A model generated the notes under the pieces. It saw nothing but the letters and a program-made list of their open reading frames with translations, ran no database searches and had not been told where the DNA came from. Positions 1,964 to 61,571 of a DNA stretch of 64,000 bases are shown here, one piece after another. The DNA comes from Candidatus Rifleibacterium sp. GTDB lineage: Bacteria > Muiribacteriota > Ozemobacteria > Ozemobacterales > Ozemobacteraceae. The stretch lies in contig DAOPYA010000006.1 in NCBI GenBank assembly GCA_035352635.1, positions 3,742 through 67,741 on the forward strand, given 5' to 3'. A program made the translations under genes and the position numbers. Every line of letters starts with the position of its first letter. Position 1 is the stretch's first letter.

Positions 1964-4867
1964 TCAGTCGCTTTTATCTTGGGAAAGCTTGGCGCTGCGC
2001 AGTTCGTAGAGTTCGTAGATATTGTATTCGCGTGCTTTGCCCTTAAGTGAACAGCGACGCAGAAAGTTGACGCGCCCTTCGCCCTTGAGCATGCGCATCG
2101 TCGAGCCGGAAATGATGATGCCGCTGCTGCTGTTGAGCGCCTCGTTTTTCAGGCGGGCCGCGAGGTTCACCTGGTCGCCGATCACAGTGAAGTCGAGTTT
2201 GCCGGTATATGAGCCGATGCGGCCTGAAATGACGGTGCCTGATGCAATGCCGGCGTAGATGTCGAATTGCTGTTCGTGCATGGCGGCAGCCAGGTCGAGG
2301 GCTGTTCTGGCGGCCCGCAGAGCGTGAGAGTCTGCATGAGCCTCACTCTCGCGAAAAACGAGCATCAGGGTATTATCTATTATCTTGTCGATAGTACCAC
2401 CGTGCTTTTTAACGAGGTGGTCGCCGCTGGTGATGAAGCGATTGATCAGAGCAACCGTCTGTTCGGGTGATAAACCTGCAGTAAGCTGGGTATAGTTTTT
2501 TAGGGCAGCGAAGATGATGGTGGCTTCAATGTTCTCGCCACCGGGAGCCATTTCGTGACTTTCTGACAACTCAATTTGCGAAATTGCATCTTCAGAAACA
2601 TAGTCGCTCAGCAGGTTGCGTTGCTGCAGGCCGACCACCAGGCCGGCAAAGGCTTCGTTCAATTTTTCGAACTCATCGCCAGTTGTGAGCGAAAGATTCC
2701 AGACATCGTGGCCCCGGGCTATCTGTTCGGCGCTTCTGGCAAGCTGCAGAACCGGGTTAACGAAAAACCTTTCCAGTAACTGGCTGACCAGATAAAAAAC
2801 CAGGCATAAATAGACCAGCAGACTCAGTGCAGCAGCAAAATAACCCTCGATATCAAGGCTCACCCTGACGATCGCCACTGCAATATGCGGAATATTATGA
2901 TTATAACGGCTGATGACATAGGTTCTGTTGCCCTGGTCGTCGGTTTCGCTGACGGTTCGTGATGTCTCATGCCTGGCGGCCTTTCTGATCACGGGTTCGC
3001 CAAGATGCCCACTGCCAGCCCATGTCTTTTTTGAACCAGTTCTATCGGTCGGCAAAAATGCGTATTTAATTGTGAACCCGCCCCAGCTTTCAACAAAATT
3101 GCCGTCGGCCACCGGCATCTGGGCAGTGTAAGAAGCCAAAATTGGCCCGGGTTCAAACTTTGCGCCGAGAATGCCCATGAACGGCATGCCGGGGGCGTGC
3201 TGGTCATACAATTTGTACATCGAATACCAGATGACACTCGTCGTCTGGTCAAAGTAATAGAATTGACCATTAGTGCGCAGCGAGTCGCCAATCGATGTGT
3301 TTTTGATCGGGTTGCCGGCGATGAGCATTATATCCTGGCGCACGCGGTTAACGATTGGCTCTGGCTCAAGCAGAAGGCTTAACAACTGTCGTGGCATGAA
3401 ACGCTCGACCATGCCGACTGTACTGTTCTGATTCGCGGGCGAACTGCGGTTCGGCAACTCAACAATCTGCGACTTTTCGGGTCGGTGCAGCGCCAGTGCC
3501 GAAACTGGCAGAGCTTTTCCAATGCGCTCAAATAGAATTGCCGTAGCCTGTGGGTCATTAAACAGCTGCCGGTCAATATTTTCGCCAAAGGAAATAAATG
3601 AACTTTCCAGGCCTTCCATGTACTGCTCAAGTTCGTTATGAATCTGGGTCAGGCGCGTTTCAACGTGCAGCAGAAGATTCTGCCTGGCGAGAAAGCTGTC
3701 ATACTGCCGGTGCAGATAAAACCCGATGGCAAGAAACGAAAATGGAAACAGTGAGACCAGCATGACACTCGCAAGAATGCGGCGCTTGAAACTGGTGTTA
3801 AGATCGATGCCGAAGGTCAGCATACGCATAAGCTGCACCAGAGAGATTATAATGATCAGACGACTGATCAGCCCGATATAATGACGAAGTCTCTGAAAAT
3901 CATGCTGAAAGCTGGTGGCCGGCAGATGATATTCAATGAACGGAATATCAAATTCGGCTTTTTTCTGGTTCAGGTGCATGCCGCTCTTATGCAGCCAGGT
4001 GCGAATGAATCTCTGGTCGGCCGGAGCCGTAATGACTATGCGGTCTTTGTAACGACGAATGCCGCTGAAAAGGTTTCCGGGCTGTGCTATGGCTTTCTGC
4101 ACATTGGTTTGTCTTGCGATGAGCCTGAGTTGCGGGTGAGTTTTACGAAGGGTTTTAAATATGGCTGGCCATGCAAGGTCGCGGCCGCGGAACACCGCCA
4201 GACAGCCTTTCTGGCCGGCCTGCGGCCTGGTGAACTCAAAATAGGTAAAATAAAGCTCGCCGCCGTAATCAACCGAAAGGTTCATTGAGACCTTTGCCGG
4301 TCTGATGTTGACCGTAGTGACGGTTTTGAACATCTGTTGAATTTGCAGGGCATTACGTACCGTTTCCTGACCCTCGGTCTGTTCTGCGTCTGCATTTGCC
4401 CGGTAGTTTTCTTTGGCCAGCATCTGAATAAGTTTGCGGAAAAGCGCTGCCGGCGGCATCTGCTTTTTCAGATCGGCTGGGCGAAAGGAGCGCGGCGTCA
4501 GTTTTTCGGCATTTGCATCAAAAAAGATGTAGAGCAGCCCCTGGCCGGTGATGACCCGGTCTATTTCGCTTTGCAGGTCGGCAACATTCGTCGAGCCGGC
4601 TGGAAGTTCAAGGTTTTCAAGCAGTGCGAGACGCGATTCGAGATAGTTTTCGACTACCAGCAGATTGCGGTATTCATCTATTTTCTGGTGCGCGATGGCT
4701 AGTTGCTCTGGCTCAGCAAAAAGCGCGTACTCGTCGAGAAAGTAATCGAGAGCGAACAGTGACCCGGCGAGTGGCAGAACCAGAACCAACAACCAGGCCA
4801 GCAACAACGGCCCGGCGGCAATGCTGATCGTTCCTGTAATTTTGTTTTTGCTGTCAGTTGCCATCAA
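1964..4867 (-). CDS. Membrane-bound sensor nucleotidyl cyclase (2 TM + periplasmic sensor region + HAMP + class III cyclase homology domain)
   Basis: 967 aa. N-terminal TM helix, large extracytoplasmic region, second TM. C-terminal CHD with FTVIGDQVNLAARL-type motif. Confidence 0.8.
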   Translation of the reverse strand: MMATDSKNKITGTISIAAGPLLLAWLLVLVLPLAGSLFALDYFLDEYALFAEPEQLAIAHQKIDEYRNLLVVENYLESRLALLENLELPAGSTNVADLQSEIDRVITGQGLLYIFFDANAEKLTPRSFRPADLKKQMPPAALFRKLIQMLAKENYRANADAEQTEGQETVRNALQIQQMFKTVTTVNIRPAKVSMNLSVDYGGELYFTYFEFTRPQAGQKGCLAVFRGRDLAWPAIFKTLRKTHPQLRLIARQTNVQKAIAQPGNLFSGIRRYKDRIVITAPADQRFIRTWLHKSGMHLNQKKAEFDIPFIEYHLPATSFQHDFQRLRHYIGLISRLIIIISLVQLMRMLTFGIDLNTSFKRRILASVMLVSLFPFSFLAIGFYLHRQYDSFLARQNLLLHVETRLTQIHNELEQYMEGLESSFISFGENIDRQLFNDPQATAILFERIGKALPVSALALHRPEKSQIVELPNRSSPANQNSTVGMVERFMPRQLLSLLLEPEPIVNRVRQDIMLIAGNPIKNTSIGDSLRTNGQFYYFDQTTSVIWYSMYKLYDQHAPGMPFMGILGAKFEPGPILASYTAQMPVADGNFVESWGGFTIKYAFLPTDRTGSKKTWAGSGHLGEPVIRKAARHETSRTVSETDDQGNRTYVISRYNHNIPHIAVAIVRVSLDIEGYFAAALSLLVYLCLVFYLVSQLLERFFVNPVLQLARSAEQIARGHDVWNLSLTTGDEFEKLNEAFAGLVVGLQQRNLLSDYVSEDAISQIELSESHEMAPGGENIEATIIFAALKNYTQLTAGLSPEQTVALINRFITSGDHLVKKHGGTIDKIIDNTLMLVFRESEAHADSHALRAARTALDLAAAMHEQQFDIYAGIASGTVISGRIGSYTGKLDFTVIGDQVNLAARLKNEALNSSSGIIISGSTMRMLKGEGRVNFLRRCSLKGKAREYNIYELYELRSAKLSQDKSD

Positions 4868-7838
4868 GAAGTTCCCAGCTTTCGTCGTTGTGGCGGGTCA
4901 GCCTGAAGGCATCGTTTAGAGCAGCACGACTGGCATTGCAGACAAGAATTCGACTTGTGGTATGCACGGTCATAGCTTCGAGATGGGCCGCCTGCTCTGT
5001 TATCCGCCCAATGATCGTGAAATCCTTGCGGCCGTTCGTGCTGCCAATGCTACCCGAAATGGCCTGGCCGGTAGTGATGCCGATGCCGTTCTCAAGAGCA
5101 AATAGATTCTGCCGGGCGCGTTGCCCGTTGAGCGCGAACAGTTGGCGGCGCATGGCGAGAGCGGTTTGGCAGGCTCGCTGTCCCACGGGCGCCAGGCCGG
5201 CTTTTTCATAAAAAACAACCTGTATGGCATCGCCGATATATTTATCGATTACCCCGCTATTCTCGCTTATGGCTGCTTCCATCGCGGTAAAATAAGTATT
5301 GAGCAGTTCAACAACCTCTGACGGTGCATATTTTTCGCTGATTGAGGTAAAGCCCCTGATATCTGAGGCGAGAACACTGACCACCTGCATGTCGCTGCCC
5401 GTAACTTTTGCCCCCGGGGTGCCTTCGACTCTCTCGATCAGTTTGGCCGAGACAAGTCTTTTGATCATTTCCCGCTGTCGCAAAGCCCCTGACATCTTGT
5501 TGAAAGCTGAGGTTATGAGACTGAATTCATCGCCCGAAAACTTTTCGATGAGAACGCCATAGTCTTCTTTGCTGAGCCTGGCGACCCCATCAGAAAAGAT
5601 TTTAACCGGTTTGATGATAAACTCGGCAAAGAGTAACGACAGAACCATGATCAGAAGAATACCGTAGCCAACCAGCACCGGAAAAAGCATACTGACGAAA
5701 AGCTGACCAATACCGTGCCCCCGGCTGCGGCCAATGGCCGAAAAAATGGCCGGACTGCCGGGTCGGAAGCTCCAGGCCTGAACCCTGGCTCCAGCTTCAC
5801 TGTGAAAGATCAGGCTACCTGTATCTTTGGCAACCATGGCGCGCTGAAAAATATCAAGCATTTCGTCGTTCGGAGCCGCCTGGGGCGGCCAGGCATTCAT
5901 GTTAAATTGTGATTGCCGGCGTAGTCTGGCAGCCAGCTCGATATCACAATAACGGTCGCTTCTGCTGAATCTTTGCTGCCGGGCCTGGGAATACTCGCTG
6001 AGATAGGCGTGGGTGAAAAAATCGCCGTCGTTGAATCGTGGAAAGGCGAATACATAGCCGCAGCCGGATGATTTTGCAATAATGCTGGCGGCGCGACTGG
6101 TATCAAGGGTGTGGGTAATATCACGCTGAATGGTTGTCTCGAATGGAATTGCCCCTTCTTCGCGCTCGGGCGTTATGAAGTCTTCGAAAATCCCAAGGGT
6201 CAGGGTGTTCGAAAGCACGTTTCCCTTTTTCTTCAGCAATCCGAGGTTGTCGAGATACTTCGGTATGATAGCATTGAGAAGTTTGTTGGTTTCTATGCCA
6301 AGATACTGAAGCGCCTGGTTAAAGTGAATAATGGTGCCATTTTCGTCAACCCAGATATGGTTGGTCGTTATGGTTCTCAGCCAGAGAAGATCGTCGCCGG
6401 GGCGACTCAGAACCTTTTCCGGGTCAAGTTGGCGGTTTTGATATTCTTCGAGGCGTCGTTTGGTTTCGAGCATTGCCAGTTGCTGATGCTGTGAGTTTTC
6501 GAGCTCGTTGATGACGAATTCGCGAATGAATTCTTCGGTCTTCAGCAGCACGTGATTTTCAATAAGGCGCCCTGAACCTTTGATGCTGATGGCGGTGAGA
6601 AAACCAACCCCGGTGACCGGAATAAAAATTATGATGGCAAGCAGTAACAGAAGCTTGCGGCGGATAGCCAGGCGCAAATTCAGGCCAAAAAGCCAGAAAT
6701 GCAGGGCCGCCATCAGGTAACATAGCAGCAGAAAGCCTGATATCAAGCGAAAAAGACGCTGATAGTTTTTCATTTCAATGATTTCGCGGGGTGGGGGGGC
6801 CTTGAGACGAAGATGATAGCGGCCGGTCTGGTCAGTATAGCGCTGTTTTTGCAATCTTTTGGTGAAAAAGAAGTGGTTCCAGAATTCGGTTGGCGGCCGA
6901 TCAAAGTAGAACAATGTTCCCCGTTCTTCAAAAAAACCTGATCTTGGCAGAGCTAAATCAATCAGTTCAGCCTCAATCTGCTCTGAATTATTTTGCAGCG
7001 CATTCTTTAGAAGCATGGCCGGTTCAATGGCTGATTGAAGAACCCCGATAACATAGCCACCGTGTATGTTCTTGCGGCTGACGCAACCGTAGGCATAGTA
7101 ATAAATTGACTGTCTGCCAAAATAGTCAGTGAAAACTTCCTTAACCGTATCGTTAAGCAAATCGAATTCGGTGAAACGGTTTAAATACTTGAATTCGAGG
7201 GCCGCACTCTTCTGGAAATTAAACTCAATCAAGTCATTCATGCTGGCATGCAGACCAAGGTTTCGCCAGCTGCGCTGGTAATATTGCTCATAAAGCTGCC
7301 CGCTCAGACCGATTAGGCGGCAGGCAATGGCCGTCGCCAGATTCATCGGCTCAGGGCACTGCGCAAGCAGGGTTTCGGCAAACCAGTGATATATGCCGGC
7401 AAAGGCAGGGCTGACAACGGCAATGAAGAGCGGGTCAACCCGTTGCGCCTGCATCGCATCTCTGAGCCTGTCTGGCAAGTTCTCGTTAAAGAGCTCTTTT
7501 CCATAGTCTTTAGCTGGTTGCATTTTGATCAGGTCGGCAGTTACCCCGGGCAGGGCTTTGGCATGAGCTTTCCTGATGATTTCTTTTATGAAAAAGGCTG
7601 GTTTCAGAAGGGTTTTAACTTTTGCAGTTTCCTGCAGCATCTTTTCGCGCAGCAGTGCCATGGCAGAATCAGTGCTGCGCTGCACCGCAGTCGTCAGAAG
7701 ATCGTTAAAAAACAACAACGGCGCCGCCAGCACGATAAAGCCGGCCAGTAACAGCACCAGAAGACGAGTTTCTGCGTATTTTTTCATGCCAGTTTGCCAG
7801 AAAATAATTGTCTGTTTACGCTGTGCAGCAGAGATCAT
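4854..7838 (-). CDS. Second membrane-bound sensor nucleotidyl cyclase (HAMP + class III cyclase domain), tandem paralog of 1964-4867
   Basis: C-terminal CHD (FTIIGRITEQAAHLEAM). The frame is open to 7922. ATG at 7838 is preceded by an AAGGG RBS, so I prefer that start. Overlaps the downstream cyclase gene by 14 bp. Confidence 0.75.
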   Translation of the reverse strand: MISAAQRKQTIIFWQTGMKKYAETRLLVLLLAGFIVLAAPLLFFNDLLTTAVQRSTDSAMALLREKMLQETAKVKTLLKPAFFIKEIIRKAHAKALPGVTADLIKMQPAKDYGKELFNENLPDRLRDAMQAQRVDPLFIAVVSPAFAGIYHWFAETLLAQCPEPMNLATAIACRLIGLSGQLYEQYYQRSWRNLGLHASMNDLIEFNFQKSAALEFKYLNRFTEFDLLNDTVKEVFTDYFGRQSIYYYAYGCVSRKNIHGGYVIGVLQSAIEPAMLLKNALQNNSEQIEAELIDLALPRSGFFEERGTLFYFDRPPTEFWNHFFFTKRLQKQRYTDQTGRYHLRLKAPPPREIIEMKNYQRLFRLISGFLLLCYLMAALHFWLFGLNLRLAIRRKLLLLLAIIIFIPVTGVGFLTAISIKGSGRLIENHVLLKTEEFIREFVINELENSQHQQLAMLETKRRLEEYQNRQLDPEKVLSRPGDDLLWLRTITTNHIWVDENGTIIHFNQALQYLGIETNKLLNAIIPKYLDNLGLLKKKGNVLSNTLTLGIFEDFITPEREEGAIPFETTIQRDITHTLDTSRAASIIAKSSGCGYVFAFPRFNDGDFFTHAYLSEYSQARQQRFSRSDRYCDIELAARLRRQSQFNMNAWPPQAAPNDEMLDIFQRAMVAKDTGSLIFHSEAGARVQAWSFRPGSPAIFSAIGRSRGHGIGQLFVSMLFPVLVGYGILLIMVLSLLFAEFIIKPVKIFSDGVARLSKEDYGVLIEKFSGDEFSLITSAFNKMSGALRQREMIKRLVSAKLIERVEGTPGAKVTGSDMQVVSVLASDIRGFTSISEKYAPSEVVELLNTYFTAMEAAISENSGVIDKYIGDAIQVVFYEKAGLAPVGQRACQTALAMRRQLFALNGQRARQNLFALENGIGITTGQAISGSIGSTNGRKDFTIIGRITEQAAHLEAMTVHTTSRILVCNASRAALNDAFRLTRHNDESWELLDGN

Positions 7839-7984
7839 GCCCTTGGAGATCGCAAAAGTATCATTTCTGACAAAGCAATGCAGCTGCGACATTCTACCAT
7901 TACTGCCGGCTATTGATAACAATTACCATAATGAATATCTATTGAAAAACGTTCTACCTGTTTTTAAATGAGTCAGACGGGCTG

Positions 7985-8044
7985 TATATAAGAGTGCATC
8001 ACTTGTTTGTCACCGATTCGACGGCGCGGCCTATCAGCCGGGTT
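7985..8044 (+). repeat. Copy 1 of a roughly 60-bp dispersed intergenic element (TATATAAGAG...CGATTCGACGGCGCGGCC...CAGCCGG)
   Basis: Near-identical sequences at 8251-8306, 13053-13112 and 61450-61510, all in + orientation. Confidence 0.6.
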
Positions 8045-8250
8045 ACTTTTTTGCTGACAGGAGGTCAGCGATACTCGACAGCATCAGGATAGATGCTGTC
8101 GGGTGCTACAGCGATTCGCTTCGCTCAGCAGAACCGCTCTATCGTGCGCGGTTCTGCATAAGCACCTCCTGTGCGTAACAAGCTTCCGAAAAAGTAATCC
8201 CGTCTTCTCTCCGCGCCTTGTGTTGGAATTTTCAAGGAGCTGTTGCATTT

Positions 8251-8306
8251 TTAAGAGTGCATCGCTTGTTTGTACCGATTCGACGGCGCGGCCCTTTCGG
8301 CCGGTT
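8251..8306 (+). repeat. Copy 2 of the roughly 60-bp dispersed intergenic element
   Basis: TAAGAGTGCATCGCTTGTTTGTACCGATTCGACGGCGCGGCCCTTTCGGCCGG. The 3' hairpin is retained with a different loop. Confidence 0.6.
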
Positions 8307-8478
8307 TACAGGTTAACTTGTAGCTTGCCGGCAAAAAGTATTGTAAAATACCCTGCGTTGCCTGATCAGTCAGAACCTGCATTTTCAAACTTCGCAAGCG
8401 CGAACCCGGTTTTTCAGACAGAGAAAGACTGCGTGCCGGGCTGCCTGTTACCCTGTTATCATAATTCAGTCACCGACC

Positions 8479-9858
8479 ATGATCATTGAACAAAAAGACG
8501 CGCAATACATCAGAATGACCGAATCTCCGGTTGGCGGGCTGATTGCCTCGCTGGCCGTTCCGACGATTGTCAGTATGCTGGTATCGTCGATCTACAACAT
8601 GGCTGACACCTGGTTTGTTTCAAAGCTTGGCACCAGCGCTTCGGCCGCGGTTGGTATTGTGTTTTCGCTGATGGCAATTATTCAGGCGATCGGCTTTATG
8701 ATCGGCATGGGTTCGGGAAGCATGATCTCGCGACTTCTCGGTGCCTGCGAGAATGACCGGGCAAATGAGGTCGCGGCGAGCGGTTTTTATCTTTCTTTTT
8801 GTCTTGGCCTGTTGCTGGCCATCGCCGGCATGTATTACCTCGACCCGTTGATGCATCTGCTCGGGGCCACCAGAAGCATTTTGCCCTTCGCCCGGCAATA
8901 TGCATTCTATATTCTGTTCGCTGCGCCGGTTATGACCGCCTGTTTTCTGCTGAACAACGTTTTAAGATCTGAGGGCAAGGCGCAGCTGGCGATGTTTGGC
9001 ATTGTTTCGGGTGGGGTGCTTAATTGTTTTCTTGACCCTCTGTTTATTTTTACTTTCAAGATGGGCATTGGTGGGGCTGCAATCGCCACCGCCCTCAGTC
9101 AATGTGTCAGTTTTGTGATTTTGTTGTCGCCTTTTCTCAGGGGCAAAACGGTTACCAGGTTAAAAATGGCTTCGGTTGCCAGAAACCCGGTTGTTTATCT
9201 GCAGATTCTCAAAAATGGTTTGCCTTCATTCTGCCGTCAGGGCCTGTCGAGTGTCGCTACCGTTGCCCTGAACGTTAACGCGGCGGTCTATGGTGACGCG
9301 GCGGTTGCCGGGGTTTCGATCGTCGGCCGGATATTTATGACTGTTTTTTCGATCACCCTCGGCATCGGGCAAGGGTTTCAGCCGGTGCTCGGTTACAACT
9401 ATGGTGCTAAAAAATACGGGCGGGTGCGCGAAGCCATTTTTTTTACACTCAAGAGCAGTTCTGTTGCGATGATTGTTTGCGCTTTGGTTGGCTATTGCAA
9501 AGCCTCAGCCCTGATGCGATTATTCATTGCCGATGATGCAGCGGTTATCAGCATAGGGTCTGTGGCTCTGCAGGCTCAATCGCTGGCGGTGCCGCTCATT
9601 CCGATGATGGTGGTCTGCAATATGACTTTTCAGGGCCTTGGCCGCTCAATGACGGCAACTATTCTGTCGATGGCCCGCCAGGGTATCTTTTTTATGCCGA
9701 TTATCCTGGTTTTTCCGCGTCTGTTCGGCTTGTTTGGTGTGCAGATCGCTCAAGCGCTCGCCGATGTCTGCACGTTTCTTGTTTGCCTGCCGTTTATGTA
9801 TAAATTTCTCAAGGAACTTGACGCCGAAACAGCGAAACTCGACACCACTGAAGCCTGA
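8479..9858 (+). CDS. MATE family multidrug/Na+ efflux transporter
   Basis: 459 aa, 12 TM, typical MatE composition. Confidence 0.85.
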   Translation: MIIEQKDAQYIRMTESPVGGLIASLAVPTIVSMLVSSIYNMADTWFVSKLGTSASAAVGIVFSLMAIIQAIGFMIGMGSGSMISRLLGACENDRANEVAASGFYLSFCLGLLLAIAGMYYLDPLMHLLGATRSILPFARQYAFYILFAAPVMTACFLLNNVLRSEGKAQLAMFGIVSGGVLNCFLDPLFIFTFKMGIGGAAIATALSQCVSFVILLSPFLRGKTVTRLKMASVARNPVVYLQILKNGLPSFCRQGLSSVATVALNVNAAVYGDAAVAGVSIVGRIFMTVFSITLGIGQGFQPVLGYNYGAKKYGRVREAIFFTLKSSSVAMIVCALVGYCKASALMRLFIADDAAVISIGSVALQAQSLAVPLIPMMVVCNMTFQGLGRSMTATILSMARQGIFFMPIILVFPRLFGLFGVQIAQALADVCTFLVCLPFMYKFLKELDAETAKLDTTEA

Positions 9859-10055
9859 GAACGTAACGTTATTCAGGGCAAGACCCAACTGATCGCCAGT
9901 CGGGCTGTGACAAATTGCTGGTCAACGCTACACTCTGGCTCGGGCGAGCCTGGTCGCTGTTCTGATTCCTTTTAAATGAATCGAGTTCACGACTGGATGT
10001 TCGTTTGACTATCGGTTAGAATATACGGGCAAAGTGAAAATCATGGGGGAACTAT

Positions 10056-13043
10056 ATGAAAAAACCGTTCTGGTCGTGTTGTGCTATGCTCGTCTTTTTG
10101 CTTTTATTGCTCTGCTCGCCGGTCAAAGCAGCCGAGCCTGAGCTTGGGGCCAGACTGCTTTTTTACCCCATCGGCAGTGATGCCCATTTTCTCGTAAAAG
10201 CCGTTAAGAGGTCTGATACCGATAGTTCATGGTTTTATTACCGTAACCAGGCTGTTTCAATCATAGAACCCCGGCCTGGCGAATGGGTTTCTTCTTTTAT
10301 AAACACAATCTGGGAAGAAAACCAGGTAACCCATGAAATTTTCGCCTGGGGCAAGCTTTCTGGCAATTCTGAAGATTTCGCAGGGCGCTTGCAGGCCTTT
10401 ACCGGCAAAGAACCGGTTGGCATTGCTTTCAATAAAATCGAGAAAAGCCCTCTGGCTCGTCTGGTTTGCGCGGGCGCCGAAAGCGGCAAAGCGCTGAGTG
10501 GTATCCCCGCCTACAAAAAATGGGCAAAAGTCAGCGACGGCGAATTACAGCACTGGGAAGCACTTTTCCAACATCTTGCCTCGCTGAACCGGCAGCGCAA
10601 TGTTCGGGGCGAGAATCTCGATCTATACAGTGTTTTTACCGGCATCAGCGCTATCCGTGAAACCCTGCAGATCGATGTCGATCTCGCCAATGAGAATCCG
10701 GTTCTTGATCGGGCCTGTAACGCCAACCTGCGCATTATTCAGAGTGCGGTCGAAATGTACAACATGGACCACTCGACCATGATGCAAACTCTTGATCTGC
10801 AGGCTCTCGTCGAAGGTGGCTACCTGAAAAGCAAACCGACATGCCGGTCCGGTCGTGAATATTATGGCAAGAACCTGGGGTCTGATGGCATGATTCGCTG
10901 CCCGGCTCACGGCGATATCAATAACCCGCGCCCTGATGATGGTCTGGTTGTCGATAATACAGCGAGAGTCAAAGTAGCTGGGCTGGAAGGCCCTAAAGCG
11001 CCATCGCACCCCTGGCGCAAAATGATCAAAAACCCCAATCTGGTTTTGCCCGAAGTCTATCGTCTGATACCGTCTGACTGCGCGTTTATTCATTTTCCTT
11101 CTTACAGCTCGTTTCGCAAGGCTTTTGACTTTTTTGCCGACTGGGCATCGGCTCTGGGCACCATGGCTGGCGGCGATTCGGGCAGTTCAAATTTCGGTCT
11201 TGAGAAGCGCATCAAAGACCAGTTGTTGCTCAAAACCGACATGCTGACCAGACTATTTGCAGACCTGGCGCTCAGTGATATTGTTTTTGTCTGTGAAGAC
11301 CCGTTTATCTTTGAAGGCAGCGCAGTGGCGGTAGTGCTTAAAATAACCAACGAAACAATGTTGCGCGAGAAGCTTGCAATGACCGCCAACGAATTTCGCA
11401 GCGAAAACCCTGCGATCAGCGAGAATACGCTGATGATGGGTGGCAGAAAGGTGCAGGCCTTCACCTCGCCTGATTTCCGCTATCGTTCTTATCGCCTGCT
11501 TGCCGATGGGCACCAGATCATCTCCAATTCGCCCCTGTTAATGGAAAAATTCATTTCGGTGCTTGACGGCAAGACCCCGGCGCTTACAGAGTTTCTTGAT
11601 CTGCATTATTTTTATGAACATATCGAGAAGAATTTTAAGCAACCGGGTCGCATTTTCAGCTTTCTTTCTGATGCCTTTATCAGAAAAATCATCGGGCCTG
11701 CCTGCAAAATCGCCACCAGACGCCGACTCGAATGCATTCGCCAGTCACTGCTGCAGACCCATGAATTGATGGTGAATGATGGCAAACTCGACGAGACCCT
11801 TACCTGCCCCGAGGGTGGCGTCTACGAGGTTGTAGATGGCGAAATCAGTTGCACGGTGCATCGGGTTTTTGGGCGAATGACGCCGGTAAGCGAAAGACTT
11901 CCGGTTGAAGCGACCCCTGAAGAAGCCAGCAGCTATGCAACTTTCGTTGCCCAATACAATCAGTATTTTTCGCAATTTTTTGACCCGATCGGTTTTGTAT
12001 TTTCAACTGAACCCGAATTCACCGGGCGACTTCTAATTATGCCGCTGGTTGAAAACGGCATTTACAGCGAATTGCAAAAAAATGTCCGCCATGAGCCGAT
12101 GAATGCCGGCCCGCAACCGCAGAACGGCATTCTCAAGGTCGGTGTGAATCTTCAAGCCGCTAATCTGCCGGTGCCCGGTTACTGGCTCAGTAACATCGCT
12201 TATCAGAAACGTCTTGAACTCGTCGGCCGCTGGTTCACTGGTTGTGTCTGGGCACATCTTGCTGACCACCCCCTGTTGTTCCACTGGGATTCAAACCTGC
12301 TGGCGCGTGGTATTCTCGGTGCTTTCAGCGGCGGGCGAACTGGTATGATGGGGTTATCACCGGCAATACTCAGCTTTTTTTCGCCGGTGCTTTTCGCGAT
12401 CGAGCTGACCGATGAGTCGCATTTTGACTCTATAATTGACTGGGTTCGCAACGAAATCGCGGGCAGCATCAACAATTCTGGCTTCATGGGGCCGGCATTC
12501 AAGCTCGATCAGCTCGAAGAGAATGGCGTCAAAATGTATGTGTTCTCGTTTGAACTTTTTGCGATCAGAAAAACCTATTACCTGACGCTTCGTGATGGTT
12601 TTTTTCTGGTGGCCAGCAAAAAAGAACTGCTCTTCAATCTTGAAGAAGCGCCTGCTTATGAAAAAAATGCCTTTTCAGGCAATTTCAACCTCGTCTTTTA
12701 CCCGGCGAAAATAAGACTGATGCGCCCTGATCTTCTCGAAGTGCGTGCCCGTTCGCAACGCGAAACCTGCCTCGAAAACCTTAAAAACCTGCATTTCGTC
12801 TCGACCTTTCACCCAGACCAGACCGAAAAATTTTATCAGATTGTTTACGCTGCGCAACCGGTCTGCCCGGCCGGCGGCACTTATTCAAGCGTCATGCCGG
12901 TTTCCTGCTCTCAACATGGCACAATTTCGGGAGGCGTGCTCAAGCCGGTTTCTGACTTTTTCAAAGGGGTTGGCGCCATCTCGATTCAGAGTTTCATCGA
13001 CTCCGAAGGCTTTCAGAGTGAGGTTAGATTTTTCCCCGAGTAA
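10056..13043 (+). CDS. Large secreted protein (signal peptide) containing an internal pseudopilin (GspG-like) domain
   Basis: Cleavable signal peptide MKKPFWSCCAMLVFLLLLLCSPVKAAEP. Internal segment DRACNANLRIIQSAVEMYNMDH..LQALVEGGYLKSKP..C..HG matches the post-helix region of T2SS GspG/type IV pilins and the C-terminal domain of 37740-40205. Confidence 0.7.
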   Translation: MKKPFWSCCAMLVFLLLLLCSPVKAAEPELGARLLFYPIGSDAHFLVKAVKRSDTDSSWFYYRNQAVSIIEPRPGEWVSSFINTIWEENQVTHEIFAWGKLSGNSEDFAGRLQAFTGKEPVGIAFNKIEKSPLARLVCAGAESGKALSGIPAYKKWAKVSDGELQHWEALFQHLASLNRQRNVRGENLDLYSVFTGISAIRETLQIDVDLANENPVLDRACNANLRIIQSAVEMYNMDHSTMMQTLDLQALVEGGYLKSKPTCRSGREYYGKNLGSDGMIRCPAHGDINNPRPDDGLVVDNTARVKVAGLEGPKAPSHPWRKMIKNPNLVLPEVYRLIPSDCAFIHFPSYSSFRKAFDFFADWASALGTMAGGDSGSSNFGLEKRIKDQLLLKTDMLTRLFADLALSDIVFVCEDPFIFEGSAVAVVLKITNETMLREKLAMTANEFRSENPAISENTLMMGGRKVQAFTSPDFRYRSYRLLADGHQIISNSPLLMEKFISVLDGKTPALTEFLDLHYFYEHIEKNFKQPGRIFSFLSDAFIRKIIGPACKIATRRRLECIRQSLLQTHELMVNDGKLDETLTCPEGGVYEVVDGEISCTVHRVFGRMTPVSERLPVEATPEEASSYATFVAQYNQYFSQFFDPIGFVFSTEPEFTGRLLIMPLVENGIYSELQKNVRHEPMNAGPQPQNGILKVGVNLQAANLPVPGYWLSNIAYQKRLELVGRWFTGCVWAHLADHPLLFHWDSNLLARGILGAFSGGRTGMMGLSPAILSFFSPVLFAIELTDESHFDSIIDWVRNEIAGSINNSGFMGPAFKLDQLEENGVKMYVFSFELFAIRKTYYLTLRDGFFLVASKKELLFNLEEAPAYEKNAFSGNFNLVFYPAKIRLMRPDLLEVRARSQRETCLENLKNLHFVSTFHPDQTEKFYQIVYAAQPVCPAGGTYSSVMPVSCSQHGTISGGVLKPVSDFFKGVGAISIQSFIDSEGFQSEVRFFPE

Positions 13044-13052
13044 AGTGCTTCT

Positions 13053-13112
13053 ATATAAGAGCGCATTGAGTATTTTTCGCCGATTCGACGGCGTGGCCTG
13101 TCAGCCGGTTTT
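13053..13112 (+). repeat. Copy 3 of the roughly 60-bp dispersed element, in the 3' UTR of the 995-aa gene
   Basis: CTATATAAGAGCGCATTGAGTATTTTTCGCCGATTCGACGGCGTGGCCTGTCAGCCGG. Confidence 0.6.
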
Positions 13113-13126
13113 GTATAGACTTAAAA

Positions 13127-13166
13127 ATGGGGCTGTTTCATAGCAATGTGAAGCAGCCCCTTTTTT
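13127..13166 (+). terminator. Rho-independent terminator
   Basis: GGGGCTG..CAGCCCC hairpin followed by TTTTTTT. Confidence 0.7.
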
Positions 13167-21545: not shown

Positions 21546-21942
21546 TTTTTTCTCCGTTGAAAATTTTTATGCTGTTTTGTTAGCAATTAGTGTACCAAGT
21601 CTTAAAAACTGCTCTGGTGCAAAAATTCACAAAGCAAGTATAGCATAATGACAAAAAACCGGCAATCCTCTGCCGAAAAATTCAGCAATTCTCAGTCAAA
21701 AGCAACCCGGCTGACAGGTCGAAGCTCCTACTTTTAAAAGACAACTGTTTAAACAAAAGTGGCTTTTGACGCGAGTTACAAAACTCACCGAGGATTGCTG
21801 CGAAAAAATCGCCAATTCATAGACACTGAAGCTATATCTGCAAAAACTATTTTGATTTCAAGAGGGTTTGCCTGGCAGGTTGAATTTTTTCATTCCCGCT
21901 GTTTTGCTTACGAGTTAAGCATTCCCGGCAAATCGAAAAAGA

Positions 21943-26531: not shown

Positions 26532-27484
26532 AGCCTCTTTACCCGGCAACTTTCAAGGCTGCTGATGTAGAACGCCAGCATTGGGCAGAAATACCGGCGA
26601 ACATTCAGTTTTATCGGCATGTTCGCAACGTCTGTAATGGTTTTCCAAGTGTTGTGCTCGCCTGGTCGGCCAGGCCAGGCCTCGAAAGCCTTGCGGCGGG
26701 CATTGCTGAAGGCCTCATGAATAGCGGAATAAATGTTTTCATGCCGCCGCAGGCCGCACCGATTTGTGCTTTATCACAGGCGATCGGCGCACGTAATCTT
26801 CCGATTGCCCTTTATCTCGACGCTGACGAACATGTTGCCAATCTGACGCTTGCCGCGCTTTCGAGCCACGGCGGGCCATTTGACCAGCAGGATATTCTTA
26901 CGGCGCCGTTTGGGCGCAGCGGAAAGTCTGGAGTCGCCGGTGAAACCGACATTGAAAGAGCTTATGTCAATAATCTTGCCGGGCTGGCTGACCAGTTTAT
27001 CGAAAACGGCACCGGTTTTTCCGAGCTGGAAATCCCTTTTAGCGCCCTTTTAGATCGTCTGCATGAAAACCCGGCACTGAAAATACTTTTTCAGCAAGAC
27101 CCCGAGGGGCCGAAAGCCATCGTAGGTCATGATGGCCAGACGTTAACCATAATCGAAAAAGATGGCCGTCAGATGCAGACAACCGAAATAGCCAGCTTTA
27201 TCACCAGTTACCTTGTCGAAGACAGAATGGCTGCCGGCACACTTCTCGGGCCGACCGGTCAGGTGCACGATTTTGCCAGATCTTTCGCCGGTCTCGAAAC
27301 CATTGAAATCGATGATTCGCTGACTGATTTTCACCATCGCGCCAGTTTCATCGACCTGCTGATTGGGTGGTGGCACAATGGTTTGATTGCTCACCAGGGC
27401 GGCAGTTGCTTTGGCGATGCCATTTTAACCGCCGTCTACTATCTCGAATCCCGCCGCCGCCACCACCAAAAAAAAAATATGTAG
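26528..27484 (+). CDS. Hypothetical protein, weak phosphohexomutase-like signature (SSHGGP)
   Basis: 318 aa. Translationally coupled to the ROK kinase (overlap at 26528-26531). Confidence 0.45.
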   Translation: MKPLYPATFKAADVERQHWAEIPANIQFYRHVRNVCNGFPSVVLAWSARPGLESLAAGIAEGLMNSGINVFMPPQAAPICALSQAIGARNLPIALYLDADEHVANLTLAALSSHGGPFDQQDILTAPFGRSGKSGVAGETDIERAYVNNLAGLADQFIENGTGFSELEIPFSALLDRLHENPALKILFQQDPEGPKAIVGHDGQTLTIIEKDGRQMQTTEIASFITSYLVEDRMAAGTLLGPTGQVHDFARSFAGLETIEIDDSLTDFHHRASFIDLLIGWWHNGLIAHQGGSCFGDAILTAVYYLESRRRHHQKKNM

Positions 27485-27663
27485 GGACCGGTTTGTAGGG
27501 ACCGGTTTGTAGGGACCGGTTTAAAACCGGTCCCTACGGGTATGTAATTGCATCCGGGTATGTAATCGTGCGCGGGTATGTAATTGCATCCGGGTATGTA
27601 ATCGTGCGCGGGTATGTAATTGCATTCGGGTATGTAATTGTGTGCGGGTACGCAATCACACCC
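27481..27663. repeat. Minisatellite: 3 x 14-bp (GTAGGGACCGGTTT), a 13-bp-stem perfect palindrome, then 7 x 18-bp direct repeats (GGGTATGTAATYGYRYSC)
   Basis: Read directly. Sits between the stop of 26528-27484 and the stop of the convergent rlmD-like gene. Confidence 0.85.
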
Positions 27664-49097: not shown

Positions 49098-49440
49098 GCC
49101 GGCCGACACACTCCGGGTTGCAATTTTTGTGCGTGCATAAGCTTTAAAGGCCTGTCTGGCCAGTTGATTTGCGGGCAAGAAACCGCACCGCTGGTGCAGA
49201 GGCCGATCAGTCTCTCAGTAATCAATCGTTATCAGGTATATCAACCGAAACGTATTAGCCTTCTTTTGTCAACCCAGCCTTTGACGCGCTTCTTTTTGCC
49301 GCTGTTGTGAAGACTGCCTTCATGTCGGTGCCCGCCTCTTGTAATAAAATGGAATATTCCCCACAATTCCCACAACCCGGCGCGAGGCCCTTTAATTGAC
49401 GCAAAAGGTTCTTTCGGCTCCCCGTAGATTTTTGCAGGCC
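49036..49440. pseudogene. Degenerate first copy of the duplicated module: flank Y1, deleted remnant of the 73-aa gene, promoter element P1
   Basis: 49036-49270 is about 90% identical to 51359-51590. 49271-49345 matches 51693-51790 (an internal deletion has removed most of the small gene). 49346-49410 is identical to 54250-54314. Confidence 0.7.
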
Positions 49441-49625
49441 TCAATAACACCCGGATTGAAAAATGGCCGCATGTCAAAAATTCGCGCATCGCCACTCAGC
49501 CATCAAGCCTGAAAAAACTGCGCGAACTCAAAAACCTCGCGGCCGAAGAAACCGCCGCAAAATAACCTTGTGGCCGATTTCCCTGGGCCGGTGACCTCGA
49601 AAAAATGACCTAAGACTCATGATTT

Positions 49626-50840
49626 TTAAGTCTGCTGGCTGAGGTCATGCAGGCGTTTTTTTGTGACTTTTTCGAGTTGGGTTCTTTGTTTTTCGGTCAT
49701 GGGGATCTGCTGCAGAATGGCTGAATACTGGCAGAACCTTGCTGTCAGCCGGTCGAGCATTTTGCTGACCGCCGCTTCAGAAACTCCGAACCGCCCGGCA
49801 AAGCTGACAAGATTACTCCTTTTGATGTTGTCGTCACGTCCATCAAGTTTCAAGGCCATTTTGTGGTCACCATAAATATGTGTGCAGAGCAGATCGTAGG
49901 CCGGCGAGACCTCGACTATCCTGCTTCCAGACTTGACGAGCAGGCTGATATTCTTTGCATGCAGATCGCCGTTGCCAATGAGATACGAGAACGCATAAAC
50001 CTCAATCAGCCTTAGTATGGCAACCTTCGCCGCCGATACATGCGTTGTGACGCCCCTGGCAATATCATTAAAAGCGACTCGATACTTGTCGGCCGGGTAG
50101 CGGTCGAGCATCTGGCAGGCGTCTTCCTGATGATGCCTAAGAAATCTGCCGGTTTTTTCGTTCCAGACGCGGTCGAATCGTGTGACGAGAAGGCCATTAT
50201 TGCCGTCGCGGTCTCTAACCAGACTGGTTCTGGCCGCTTCAATGCTGCATTTTTGTGCTAGTTGCATGCAGAAGTGTTCATTCTCAACCAGATTCGGTTT
50301 GTCGGGCGGATTCAACTTGAGAATATACCGGCAATTCTCTTTCGCAATGTTGACAGGGAAACTGATCATCGATGCCGAGAGTTTTTCCTGGGCTCCTGCA
50401 ATCGCCTCGTCGCGCATAATTGCATTGCCGGATAACACTTTCTGAAAATATTCGTAGAAATTTATTTCTCTGAGCTTTGGAATCTGTGCTTCATCCTCAG
50501 AGCGCTCGACGCCGGCATAGACATCACCGATTACCTGATCGCCGATGCTTGCGAAAAGACTGAAAAGATCGTCTTCAGAAGTCTTTAGATTTCGCACCAG
50601 CGACTTTAATCGTAACCCTTCGGGCAGCAGTCCCGCAAAAAACGGAAAAAGATTGACGCCAGGGTTGATCAGGCGTGCCGGGCTTTTCTTCATGCAGAAA
50701 GAAATCCCTGCAAAATTCTGCTGCCGCAGAAAATCGTCGTCGAACACAAACTCGCAGCCGGCAGGCGTTCTGCGCAAGATTCCGGCTCGCTGACCATCTC
50801 GAAAGATGTTTAATTCGCTGATCGAACGGGCGTCTTTCAT
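49626..50840 (-). CDS. hipA: HipA-family serine/threonine kinase toxin
   Basis: HipA N and C domains. GNGDLHAKNISL catalytic motif. 4-bp overlap with hipB. Confidence 0.85.
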   Translation of the reverse strand: MKDARSISELNIFRDGQRAGILRRTPAGCEFVFDDDFLRQQNFAGISFCMKKSPARLINPGVNLFPFFAGLLPEGLRLKSLVRNLKTSEDDLFSLFASIGDQVIGDVYAGVERSEDEAQIPKLREINFYEYFQKVLSGNAIMRDEAIAGAQEKLSASMISFPVNIAKENCRYILKLNPPDKPNLVENEHFCMQLAQKCSIEAARTSLVRDRDGNNGLLVTRFDRVWNEKTGRFLRHHQEDACQMLDRYPADKYRVAFNDIARGVTTHVSAAKVAILRLIEVYAFSYLIGNGDLHAKNISLLVKSGSRIVEVSPAYDLLCTHIYGDHKMALKLDGRDDNIKRSNLVSFAGRFGVSEAAVSKMLDRLTARFCQYSAILQQIPMTEKQRTQLEKVTKKRLHDLSQQT

Positions 50841-51094
50841 TTTTCAACAATATTCTCTGAAGTTCGGAAGCCTGAACCTCCGGGGGTAAGGGCCAACTCG
50901 AGGCCGAGAACATCAATTACGGCAAGCAGCTTGTCGAGCTGTGTTTTGGGCTTGCCGTTTTCGAGCTGCGAAACGTAGTTAAGACTGACACCCGCCAGGT
51001 CGGCCAGCTGTGTCTGAGTCAGACCGAGATTTTTGCGGTAGTCCTTGATTGCCGCACCTAATTTTTTAGTTACCTGCGAACTCGAATTGTTCAT
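50837..51094 (-). CDS. hipB: HipB-like XRE-family HTH antitoxin/transcriptional regulator
   Basis: LGLTQTQLADLAGVSLNYVSQLENGK helix-turn-helix. Confidence 0.8.
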   Translation of the reverse strand: MNNSSSQVTKKLGAAIKDYRKNLGLTQTQLADLAGVSLNYVSQLENGKPKTQLDKLLAVIDVLGLELALTPGGSGFRTSENIVEK

Positions 51095-51157
51095 TTTTCC
51101 TATGTGTGAAGTAAAAATTTAACTTATCCTACTAAAGTATATTGATTTTTATAAAAA

Positions 51158-51366: not shown

Positions 51367-51538
51367 ATTCTTGCCTTCATCAAGGCAAAAACCATTGGGG
51401 CGCTCACAAATTAAACTGGTCGCTGCACTCCGGGTTGCCATTTTTGTGCGTGCATAAGCTTTAAAGGCCTGCATGGCCAGTTGATTGGCGGGAAGGAAGC
51501 CGCAACGCTGGTGCAGAGGCCGATCAGCCGCTCAGTAA

Positions 51539-61449: not shown

Positions 61450-61510
61450 TATATAAGAGAGCATCGAGTATTTTTCGCCGATGCGACGGCGCGGCCTATC
61501 AGCCGGGTTT
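61450..61510 (+). repeat. Copy 4 of the roughly 60-bp dispersed element, followed by an 11-bp-stem hairpin (61521-61558)
   Basis: CTATATAAGAGAGCATCGAGTATTTTTCGCCGATGCGACGGCGCGGCCTATCAGCCGGG. Confidence 0.6.
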
Positions 61511-61571
61511 GTTTTGTTTAGAGGCTGCCCCGCTCATGCGGTATCGCGGGGCAGCCTGCTTGATAACCGAT

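What the first reader, a model, noticed from the sequence alone, without database searches (positions are those of the whole stretch)
7923..8478. Two tandem copies of a roughly 60-bp element plus two 10-bp-stem hairpins in the 556-bp divergent region upstream of the MATE pump
Copies lie at 7985-8044 and 8251-8306. They share TAAGAGTGCATC..TTGTTTGT.ACCGATTCGACGGCGCGGCC, then a short hairpin whose loop differs while pairing is preserved (CGGC-CTATCA-GCCG versus CGGCC-CTTT-GGCCG). Between them lie strong hairpins at 8069-8100 and 8125-8160. Each element starts with a -10-like TATATAAGAG. This could be a structured leader or sRNA region, or an array of REP/MITE-like repeats.
Basis: seen in the sequence. 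Interest (0 to 1): 0.55.

Follow-up and report, generated by a model that had tools for sequence, protein, structure and literature searches.

The report
Species-specific dispersed 60-bp intergenic repeat
The two look-alike 60-base stretches upstream of the efflux-pump gene belong to a short repeat found at least four times in this 64-kb piece of an uncultured Rifleibacterium genome and missing from the same spots in related genomes, so it is most likely small mobile "junk" DNA, not a regulator of the pump.

Summary
Two about 60-nt direct copies lie at 7985-8044 and 8248-8307, with two strong hairpins between them.

The element is not specific to this locus. Two more full copies lie on the same strand at 13052-13111 and 61450-61511, and a fragment lies on the minus strand near 21698-21721.

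The window comes from a Candidatus Rifleibacterium MAG. No copy was found in about 110 kb from six other Riflebacteria lineages. Orthologous sites are empty:
- The sister species has 71 bp where the window has 379 bp (7932-8310).
- In two other species, the terminator hairpin after the 995-aa gene lies 20-32 nt from the stop codon. In the window the element sits between the stop and that same hairpin.
- The ssnA-regulator spacer is element-free in another species.

The element has no terminal inverted repeats, no Rfam match, no promoter or terminator consensus, no compensatory base changes and no unusual folding energy.

Best reading: a lineage-restricted, REP-like, non-autonomous insertional repeat. 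The enzyme that moves it is unknown. The sRNA and pump-leader readings are not supported. This is a new member of a known kind, of modest interest.

The parts
7985..8044 (+). Copy A of the repeat: TATATAAGAGTGCATCACTTGTTTGTCACCGATTCGACGGCGCGGCCTATCAGCCGGGTT. It lies 93 nt from the cyclase start codon, in the divergent intergenic region.
   Evidence: nhmmer E = 2e-24
8248..8307 (+). Copy B. It starts TTTTTAAGAG, has a 1-nt deletion relative to A, and has a different loop in the second hairpin. It lies about 170 nt upstream of the MATE start codon.
   Evidence: E = 1.5e-19. It is 100% conserved in strain contig L129.
13052..13111 (+). Copy C. It starts 9 nt after the stop codon of the 995-aa Riflebacteria-specific gene and lies 5' of that gene's conserved terminator hairpin.
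   Evidence: E = 1.7e-23. Empty orthologous sites in L127 and L125.
61450..61511 (+). Copy D. It lies between ssnA (minus strand, stop at 61572) and the response-regulator gene (minus strand, start at 61418). It is antisense to both genes, and its T-rich tail abuts the hairpin at 61521-61558.
   Evidence: E = 2.9e-24. Element-free orthologous spacer in L130-L139.
21698..21721 (-). Degenerate fragment of the 3' end of the element (GACCTGTCAGCCGGGTTGCTTTTG). It lacks the first hairpin.
   Evidence: E = 0.074; pair I3. The support is weak.
8039..8202 (.). A 164-nt compound palindrome. An interrupted outer stem (8040-8065 pairing with 8164-8200) encloses three hairpins. Its left arm overlaps the last bases of copy A. 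It occurs once in all DNA examined.
   Evidence: pairs I1, I6; -82.4 and -79.6 kcal/mol; z = -8.3 and -8.4
8073..8104 (.). Inner hairpin 1 of the palindrome: 13-nt arms with 12/13 paired and a 6-nt loop.
   Evidence: pair I2
8128..8157 (.). Inner hairpin 2 of the palindrome: 10-nt perfect arms and a 10-nt loop. No T-run follows it on either strand.
   Evidence: (pair I8)
7932..8310 (.). A 379-bp segment holding copy A, the palindrome and copy B. An unrelated 71-bp stretch replaces it in the sister species (L116 1090-1160).
   Evidence: The right edge coincides with the left edge of the mosaic tract in L129.
13129..13160 (+). Intrinsic terminator hairpin of the 995-aa gene. It is conserved in other Riflebacteria species and predates the insertion of copy C.
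61521..61558 (.). Strong hairpin downstream of ssnA, immediately 3' of copy D on the + strand. In relatives a hairpin at this position is followed by a T-run. In the window the tail of the element lies there instead.
4854..7892 (-). Flanking gene: HAMP-domain class III adenylate/guanylate cyclase, 1012 aa.
8479..9858 (+). Flanking gene: MATE family efflux transporter, 459 aa.

Best explanation
The two copies belong to a short (about 60 nt) dispersed intergenic repeat family confined, as far as the data reach, to one Candidatus Rifleibacterium species.

Shown:
- The unit is discrete. Similarity starts at (T)ATATAAGAG and ends at GCCGG(G)TT, and the flanks are unrelated.
- It has a conserved 5' end (TAAGAG-GCAT), a variable 12-nt middle, and a conserved GC-rich 3' half. 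That half can form two adjacent 4-5-bp hairpins: CGCCG-ATTCGA-CGGCG and CGGC-loop-GCCG.
- Relative to other Riflebacteria, each copy is extra DNA in an otherwise conserved intergenic layout. Each lies 2-20 nt 5' of a palindrome or terminator hairpin.
- All four full copies are on the same strand.

Inferred:
- It is, or recently was, a non-autonomous mobile element copied in trans by an enzyme encoded elsewhere in the genome.
- It has no terminal inverted repeats, carries hairpins, sits beside hairpins and shows a single orientation. The most likely mobiliser is therefore a single-strand-DNA (HUH/Y1, RAYT- or IS200/IS605-type) transposase that recognises the hairpins. A cut-and-paste DDE transposase is less likely.
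- Any effect on the MATE pump or the cyclase gene is a by-product of where it landed.
- The 164-nt palindrome between copies A and B is a separate, single-copy structure inside the same 379-bp lineage-specific segment.
For: - Four full copies in 64 kb with nhmmer E = 1e-19 to 1e-24, against 0 chance matches in shuffles.
- Copies A/B and C/D form two subfamilies. Only the unit is shared, not the flanks.
- The organism was identified as Ca. Rifleibacterium sp..
- No copy in L116, L117, L123, L125, L127 or L130-L139, about 110 kb non-redundant. At the window's density about 7 copies would be expected, giving a Poisson P of about 0.001 (my calculation).
- Empty site for A/B: L116, at about 85% nucleotide identity in the flanking genes, has 71 unrelated bp in place of 7932-8310.
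- Empty site for C: in L127 and L125 the terminator hairpin lies 20 and 32 nt after the stop codon. The L127 hairpin differs by 1 nt from the window's. In the window the distance is 85 nt and the element fills the gap.
- Empty site for D: the L130-L139 spacer is 106-138 bp with no element, against 153 bp in the window. The sister species has 109 bp, known from gene coordinates only.
- No terminal inverted repeats, by direct inspection of the ends.
- No Rfam family.
- No promoter or terminator consensus inside any copy.
- No compensatory pairs, and folding z-scores between +1.1 and -1.6.
- No match in the E. coli, plasmid or phage collections.
Against: - No transposase of any kind lies in the window (Pfam), so the mobiliser is pure inference.
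- Only 4 copies and 1 fragment were seen. The rest of the genome could not be searched, so genome-wide copy number is unknown.
- Target-site duplication is ambiguous. Copy C is flanked by TATA...TATA, and excising the element plus one TATA gives a 22-nt spacer against L127's 20 nt. A, B and D show only a TA, which is weak in AT-rich sequence.
- Copies differ by 5-20%, so there is no sign of very recent activity.
- No presence/absence polymorphism was seen among strains of the same species. L119-L122 are identical to the window and L129 keeps copy B.
- All four copies on one strand has P = 0.125, which is not significant, and the fragment is on the other strand.
- A conserved 5' end that looks like a -10 box plus T-rich tails after the second hairpin would also fit a small transcript.
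Confidence: 0.68

Rival explanations
1. A multi-copy small RNA gene family. Each copy would be transcribed from the TATATA box on the + strand. The variable 5' part would be the seed, the two hairpins a scaffold, and the T-rich tail or the next strong hairpin the terminator.
For: - The conserved TATATAAGAG at the 5' end is -10-like in three of four copies.
- T-rich tails follow the second hairpin.
- The middle is variable between conserved ends.
- In copy C one side of a pair changes C-G to U-G, which keeps pairing on the + strand.
- Copy C is followed by a canonical terminator.
Against: - No sigma-70-type promoter or intrinsic-terminator consensus lies inside any copy.
- No -35-like sequence is shared, because similarity begins at the TATATA box.
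- Copy B has TTTTTA in place of the box.
- No Rfam hit.
- No compensatory changes.
- Folding is no better than shuffles.
- The first hairpin in A and B is closed only on the minus strand (G-U), which contradicts the strand implied by copy C.
- The element is absent from every relative, including the sister species.
Confidence: 0.15
2. A cis-acting leader or riboswitch, or a structured 5' UTR, that controls the MATE efflux gene or the divergent cyclase gene.
For: The copies and a very stable structure lie in the long divergent region upstream of the MATE gene. Copy B has the same orientation as the MATE gene.
Against: - The whole 379-bp segment is missing upstream of the 93%-identical MATE orthologue in L116 and of the 77% homologue in L117.
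- The same element lies after a stop codon (copy C) and antisense between two other genes (copy D).
- No Rfam family matches.
Confidence: 0.03
3. Repeated binding sites for a DNA-binding protein, such as a nucleoid protein, a regulator or an uptake-sequence-like signal. Selection would maintain them and they would not be mobile.
For: - Some blocks are invariant across all four copies: TAAGAG, GCAT, CCGAT, CGACGGCG and GGCC.
- The positions are intergenic.
- Competence-like genes (ComGC_C, Endonuclease_1) are nearby.
Against: - Sixty nt is long for an operator.
- The neighbouring genes are functionally unrelated: cyclase and MATE, a 995-aa pilin-like protein, and ssnA with a response regulator.
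- The element is absent from orthologous promoters in relatives whose genes are conserved.
- Copy C sits between a stop codon and its terminator.
Confidence: 0.08
4. Local duplication only. Copy A would have arisen from copy B by a tandem duplication within this intergenic region, and the similarity to C and D would be unrelated.
For: A and B are each other's closest relatives and lie 263 bp apart.
Against: - Sequences flanking A and B share nothing beyond the unit itself.
- C and D match the same unit end to end, with E = 1e-23 to 1e-24.
Confidence: 0.02

Closest known systems
REP (repetitive extragenic palindromic) sequences and REPINs, mobilised by RAYT tyrosine transposases
   Same: - Short, within the 21-65 bp range given in PMC3184786.
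- Extragenic, with a GC-rich hairpin-forming part.
- Multiple copies, lineage-specific, often beside gene 3' ends and terminators.
- No terminal inverted repeats and no coding capacity.
   Different: - The unit as a whole is not a palindrome. Only its 3' half forms two very short (4-5 bp) hairpins, and the 5' half is AT-rich and unpaired.
- It has no conserved GTAG.
- Copies are single and in direct orientation, not the inverted doublets of REPINs (PMC3116915, PMC3337134).
- No RAYT gene was seen, and genome-wide copy number is unknown.
Neisseria REP2 and Borrelia IR-A type repeats, as described in PMC3184786
   Same: Intergenic repeats without terminal inverted repeats. They have two internal stem-loops and a promoter-like box at one end.
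   Different: - REP2 is 120-150 bp, carries a promoter, ribosome-binding site and ATG, and sits immediately upstream of ORFs.
- This element is about 60 nt and has no ATG or ribosome-binding site.
- It gave no promoter consensus hit.
- It occurs downstream of a gene (copy C) and antisense to its neighbours (copy D).
MITEs, for example Correia elements, RUP and Nezha
   Same: - Small, non-coding and multi-copy.
- Presence/absence differences between related genomes.
- Insertion in intergenic DNA.
- A possible TA or TATA duplication at copy C.
- Correia elements also create TATA-like boxes at their ends (my recollection, not tested here).
   Different: The element has no terminal inverted repeats, which define a MITE (PMC3184786), and it does not fold into one long hairpin. 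The target duplication is not established.
IS200/IS605-derived palindrome-associated elements (PATEs)
   Same: - No inverted ends.
- Hairpins are the likely recognition feature.
- No clear target duplication.
- A constant sequence (TATAT) sits immediately 5' of the conserved core in three of four copies.
- Single-orientation bias.
   Different: Those elements carry distinct subterminal hairpins at both ends. Here hairpins are only in the 3' half. No TnpA or TnpB is nearby. None of this could be tested beyond the window.

Membership tests
MITE | Terminal inverted repeats flanking a core | tested here: not met
   The left end is TAAGAGTGCATC. The reverse complement of the right end is ACCCGGCTGATAGG. 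They show no similarity (direct inspection). The repeat finder reported no inverted pair joining the two ends of a copy.
MITE | Target-site duplication (direct repeats) at each copy | tested here: inconclusive
   Copy C has TATA on both sides, and its reconstructed empty site matches L127 in length. A, B and D share only TA, and B's left side is TT.
MITE | Small (less than about 400 bp), no transposase gene, multiple copies, absent from the same site in related genomes | tested here: met
   The unit is about 60 nt with no conserved ORF, since B carries a frame-shifting deletion. There are four copies. Empty sites were found in relatives.
REP / REPIN (RAYT-associated) | Short (21-65 bp), extragenic, G+C-rich unit that folds into a stem-loop | tested here: inconclusive
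   Length and extragenic location fit. Only the 3' half is GC-rich, and it forms two 4-5-bp hairpins, not one imperfect palindrome. Folding energy is no better than shuffles (z = +1.1 to -1.6).
REP / REPIN (RAYT-associated) | Conserved GTAG-type tetranucleotide 5' of the palindrome | tested here: not met
   No GTAG occurs in any of the four copies.
REP / REPIN (RAYT-associated) | Inverted doublets (REPIN) or BIME clusters | tested here: not met
   All four full copies are single and on the + strand. A and B are direct repeats 263 bp apart.
REP / REPIN (RAYT-associated) | Tens to hundreds of copies per genome, and a RAYT gene flanked by the repeats | not testable with these tools
   Only 64 kb of this genome is available. 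It holds four copies and no Y1 transposase domain in any ORF of 150 aa or more.
Small RNA gene family | Own promoter and terminator | tested here: not met
   Consensus scans found none inside any copy. These are simple sigma-70 and intrinsic-terminator rules, and no expression data are available.
Small RNA gene family | Structure supported by covariation, or membership of a curated family | tested here: not met
   RNAalifold predicted 8 pairs with 0 compensatory changes. No Rfam match reached a family's gathering score, and none overlapped a copy at E up to 1-10. With only four sequences the covariation test has little power.
Small RNA gene family | Conservation in related genomes | tested here: not met
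   Absent from about 110 kb of six other Riflebacteria lineages and from the orthologous sites.
Riboswitch or leader of the MATE gene | Conserved position upstream of orthologous genes | tested here: not met
   The sister-species orthologue (93% aa) has a 279-bp spacer without the element. L117 has a 132-bp spacer.
IS200/IS605-type non-autonomous element (PATE) | Subterminal hairpins at both ends; insertion 3' of a fixed 4-5-nt target; no TIR or TSD; TnpA in the genome | tested here: inconclusive
   The absence of terminal inverted repeats fits. Hairpins occur only in the 3' half. TATAT precedes AAGAG in A, C and D, but B has TTTTT. Presence of TnpA is not testable.

The most novel reading that the evidence does not exclude
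This would be an undescribed kind of miniature mobile element in the candidate phylum Riflebacteria. It is asymmetric, with no inverted ends and no overall palindrome. It has a conserved AT-rich 5' end and twin mini-hairpins at the 3' end. It would insert in a fixed orientation immediately 5' of pre-existing terminator or other hairpins, implying structure-directed targeting by an enzyme not yet identified. As a side effect it would rewire 3' ends and promoters. For example, it displaces the T-run of the ssnA terminator and places a TATATA box 32 nt from the response-regulator start codon.
Probability: 0.2. Interest if true: 0.55.

Novelty: new member of a known kind. Interest (0 to 1): 0.3.

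Why it matters
Short interspersed repeats are well known in Proteobacteria, Neisseria, pneumococci and cyanobacteria. I found no description of any in Riflebacteria, a candidate phylum known only from metagenome-assembled genomes.

A species-specific repeat of this kind is useful in three ways:
- It is a strain or species marker.
- It is a likely cause of assembly breaks and mosaic contigs.
- It is a handle for finding whichever transposase moves it.

The result also stops a mis-annotation. The region upstream of the MATE pump should not be recorded as a riboswitch or sRNA locus on present evidence.

If the preference for landing beside hairpins holds genome-wide, it would be one more case of structure-directed insertion. 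That would be of moderate interest to specialists in mobile DNA.

Tried and rejected
1. The genome-contig scan with the GC-rich core CCGATKCGACGGCGYGGCC returned over 115 loci, all chance hits in high-GC genomes (L001-L115). This was my mistake in pattern design.
2. The metagenome scan with a 23-base gapped pattern gave one hit, L118. It lies inside an 843-aa permease ORF of an unrelated organism and is chance.
3. Two viral-contig scans found nothing.
4. Searches of the E. coli, plasmid and phage collections found nothing meaningful.
5. Rfam scans at permissive E-values found only sub-threshold hits to neighbouring hairpins.
6. I looked for a degenerate orthologue of copy B in L116, because TATAGAAG..AGTATTT..GCCGGTT looked similar by eye. 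Smith-Waterman scores against shuffles gave P = 0.03-0.3, so I rejected it as not significant.
7. Coding potential is rejected. Copy A has a 33-codon GTG frame, but copy B carries a 1-nt deletion and C and D lack the start. The 54-aa minus-strand ORF 8084..8248 looks spurious.
8. I rejected readings as an integron attC, IHF site, extended -10, DGR or CRISPR from direct inspection of the sequence.
9. I tried to reach other contigs of the same genome through paralogues of the cyclase. The search returned only 15 orthologues from other species.
10. Look-ups of sister-species contigs at the C and D sites returned gene coordinates but no DNA. P0125 was not on record.
11. I searched for further copies of the 164-nt palindrome in all held DNA and found none.

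Full report
**The observation.**
The region 7700-8700 was read directly. The repeat finder confirms two direct copies: 7989-8010 / 8252-8273 (22 nt, 95%) and 8012-8044 / 8274-8306 (33 nt, 82%). They are separated by a 1-nt deletion in the second copy and lie 262-263 bp apart.

The same call confirms two hairpins. One is at 8073-8104, with 13-nt arms, 12/13 paired and a 6-nt loop. The other is at 8128-8157, with 10-nt perfect arms and a 10-nt loop.

Neither half of the repeat occurred in any of 100 dinucleotide-preserving shuffles of the window.
- The first hairpin is about 4 nt to the right of the stated coordinates.
- The copies are not head-to-tail.
- Only copy A begins TATATAAGAG. Copy B has TTTTTAAGAG.
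- The intergenic region is 7893-8478, because gene callers start the cyclase gene at the ATG at 7892.

**The element is dispersed, not local.**
Allowing mismatches, the 3' core matched two more places on the same strand, at 13079 and 61477. Reading them showed the whole unit again, including TATATAAGAG at the 5' end and GGCC-loop-GCCGG followed by Ts at the 3' end.

An HMM built from the four copies finds them at E = 1e-19 to 1e-24 and nothing else convincing in the window. One weak minus-strand hit near 21692-21721 is, on inspection, a 3'-end fragment: GACCTGTCAGCCGGGTTGCTTTTG.

The four copies fall into two subfamilies, A/B and C/D. They differ mainly in a roughly 12-nt middle segment. The blocks TAAGAG, GCAT, CCGAT, CGACGGCG and GGCC are invariant. 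Sequence outside the unit is unrelated between copies.

**Context and organism.**
The flanking genes are a HAMP-domain class III nucleotide cyclase (minus strand) and a MatE transporter (plus strand). The exact MATE protein is in the public collection as HNX74415.1 from a Candidatus Rifleibacterium sp. MAG. The window corresponds to contig CAZOMG010000020.1 of GCA_964580875.1.

- Copy C starts 9 nt after the stop of a 995-aa protein that has homologues only in Riflebacteria (22 hits).
- Copy D lies between ssnA and a PAS-GAF response-regulator gene. Both are on the minus strand, so D is antisense to its neighbours.
- No ORF of 150 aa or more in the window has a transposase domain.

**Related genomes.**
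Loci L119-L122 are 100% identical to the window and represent the same population in other samples.

The closest distinct relative is L116. Its MATE protein is 93% identical and its flanking genes are about 85% identical at the nucleotide level. It aligns up to window 7931 and again from 8311. In between it has 71 bp where the window has 379 bp. A by-eye resemblance of those 71 bp to the element was not significant against shuffles.

More distant Riflebacteria were also scanned: L117, L123-L128 and L130-L139. Together with L116 they total about 110 kb of non-redundant sequence, and none holds a copy by nhmmer. At the window's density about seven copies would be expected.

The orthologous sites tell the same story:
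- In L127 and L125 the terminator hairpin after the 995-aa gene lies 20 and 32 nt from the stop codon. The L127 hairpin, GGGGCTGTTTCATAGCAATaTGAAGCAGCCCC, differs from the window's by one loop base. In the window the distance is 85 nt, and the element sits between the stop and that hairpin.
- In L130-L139 the ssnA-regulator spacer is 106-138 bp: a hairpin, a T-run and a short upstream region, with no element. In the window it is 153 bp, and the T-rich tail of the element lies where the T-run is in relatives.
- In the sister species this spacer is 109 bp. That figure comes from gene coordinates only, because no DNA was returned.

By parsimony, the copies were gained in the window's lineage.

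**A strain-level contig.**
L129 (98.9% MATE identity) keeps copy B unchanged but is a mosaic. Window positions 8311-9090 are 6.5% diverged and everything else is identical. The diverged tract is from a third lineage, equally far from L116. Its left break coincides with the right edge of the segment missing in L116. I read this as recombination or assembly switching at the edge of homology, not as evidence of selection on the element.

**Is it an RNA?**
- Rfam gives nothing at gathering thresholds for the whole window. At E up to 1-10 around all copies it gives nothing overlapping a copy.
- Each copy folded alone, on either strand, is no more stable than shuffles, with z between +1.1 and -1.6.
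- RNAalifold finds 8 pairs in two mini-hairpins and no compensatory change.
- The one-sided changes point to opposite strands. U-G in copy C favours the + strand, while G-U closing the first hairpin in A and B favours the minus strand.
- Simple promoter and terminator scans find nothing inside any copy.
- Similarity begins at the TATATA box, so no -35 region is shared.

None of this excludes transcription, but nothing supports an sRNA or a leader. Absence upstream of the orthologous MATE gene argues directly against a pump-specific regulator.

**The hairpins between A and B.**
The two hairpins are the inner arms of a larger structure. Positions 8040-8065 pair with 8164-8200 (pairs I1 and I6) around three hairpins. 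The fold is -82.4 kcal/mol on the + strand and -79.6 on the minus strand, with z about -8.3 on both. Its left arm overlaps the last bases of copy A. It has MITE-like fold symmetry but no recognisable target duplication, and it occurs only once in all DNA examined. I could not assign it.

**What it most likely is.**
It is a discrete 60-nt unit present several times in one species. It is absent from the same intergenic sites in relatives whose neighbouring genes, and even terminator hairpins, are conserved. It lacks coding capacity. That is the behaviour of a non-autonomous insertional repeat.

- It lacks the terminal inverted repeats that define MITEs (PMC3184786).
- It is closest in kind to REP-type elements and to the TIR-less Neisseria REP2 class described in the same review.
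- It fails specific features of each: no single palindrome, no GTAG, no inverted doublets (PMC3116915, PMC3337134), and no promoter-RBS-ATG module.
- Each copy lies 2-20 nt 5' of a palindrome or hairpin, and all full copies share one strand. This is suggestive of structure-directed, single-strand transposition, but with n = 4 it is not significant.
- A TATA...TATA flank at copy C gives a reconstructed empty site of 22 nt, against 20 nt in L127. The other copies show only TA.
- The mobilising enzyme is inferred, not observed.

**Limits.**
Only 64 kb of this genome could be examined. My first collection scan used a GC-rich core and was wasted on chance hits. That removed the chance of a genome-wide census. 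Sister-species DNA at two of the three sites was not retrievable.

**Verdict.**
The sRNA or leader interpretation is not supported. The dispersed-repeat interpretation is supported in a broad sense. This is a new member of a known kind of element in a little-studied phylum, of modest interest.

Noticed in passing
window 49364-49428 and 54248-54312 (sense on the minus strand): A second, unrelated 65-nt repeat is 100% identical at two sites: TCTACGGGGAGCCGAAAGAACCTTTTGCGTCAATTAAAGGGCCTCGCGCCGGGTTGTGGGAATTG. One copy lies about 160 nt upstream of a 755-aa ORF with no Pfam domain. It shares the GGCC-loop-GCCGGGTT motif with the element studied. It has no Rfam hit at gathering score.
   Followed up: partly
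window 49035-56150: Several further repeated modules of 31-234 nt at 90-97% identity lie around hipA (49626..50840, minus), the 755-aa ORF and a C39-like peptidase ORF. These are families D2, D4, D6, D7 and D9. D7 contains a repeated 22-codon ORF (MKAVFTTAAKRSASKAGLTKEG). The region looks like a patchwork of duplicated intergenic cassettes.
   Followed up: no
window 27480-27650: Two adjacent tandem arrays lie between convergent genes. The first is TGTAGGGACCGGTT x3 (100% identical) followed by its inverted copy, which gives a perfect 12-bp palindrome beginning GTAG. The second is an 18/36-nt array (CGGGTATGTAATTGCATC / CGGGTATGTAATCGTGCG) of about 6.3 units. The 18-nt unit is not found in any fetched locus.
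   Followed up: partly
L129 1-1916 against window 8183-10098: This strain contig is mosaic. Window positions 8311-9090 are 6.5% diverged (51 substitutions), while both flanks are identical. The diverged tract comes from a third lineage equidistant from the sister species. The cause is recombination or chimeric assembly.
   Followed up: yes
window 61521-61571 compared with L130 7828-7933: In relatives the hairpin after ssnA is followed by a T-run, making a canonical terminator. In the window the hairpin is followed on the minus strand by CTAAACAAAACAAA, because the tail of the repeat lies there. Termination between ssnA and the response-regulator gene may therefore be weakened.
   Followed up: no
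sister-species contig from ERZ22666135 (no DNA returned): Gene order suggests mltA is absent between the 995-aa gene and the Endonuclease_1 gene in the sister species, as in L123. The window, L125 and L127 do have mltA there.
   Followed up: no
window 10056-13043: This 995-aa protein with a weak ComGC_C domain has homologues only in Riflebacteria (22 hits, down to 38% identity). It sits next to Endonuclease_1 in several genomes, and in L123 next to a T2SSE ATPase. It may belong to a lineage-specific pilus or competence-like system.
   Followed up: no
window 1964-7892: Two large paralogous class III adenylate/guanylate cyclase genes (966 and 1012 aa) lie in tandem with overlapping ends. Orthologues of the 1012-aa one were found only in Riflebacteria (15 hits).
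   Followed up: no
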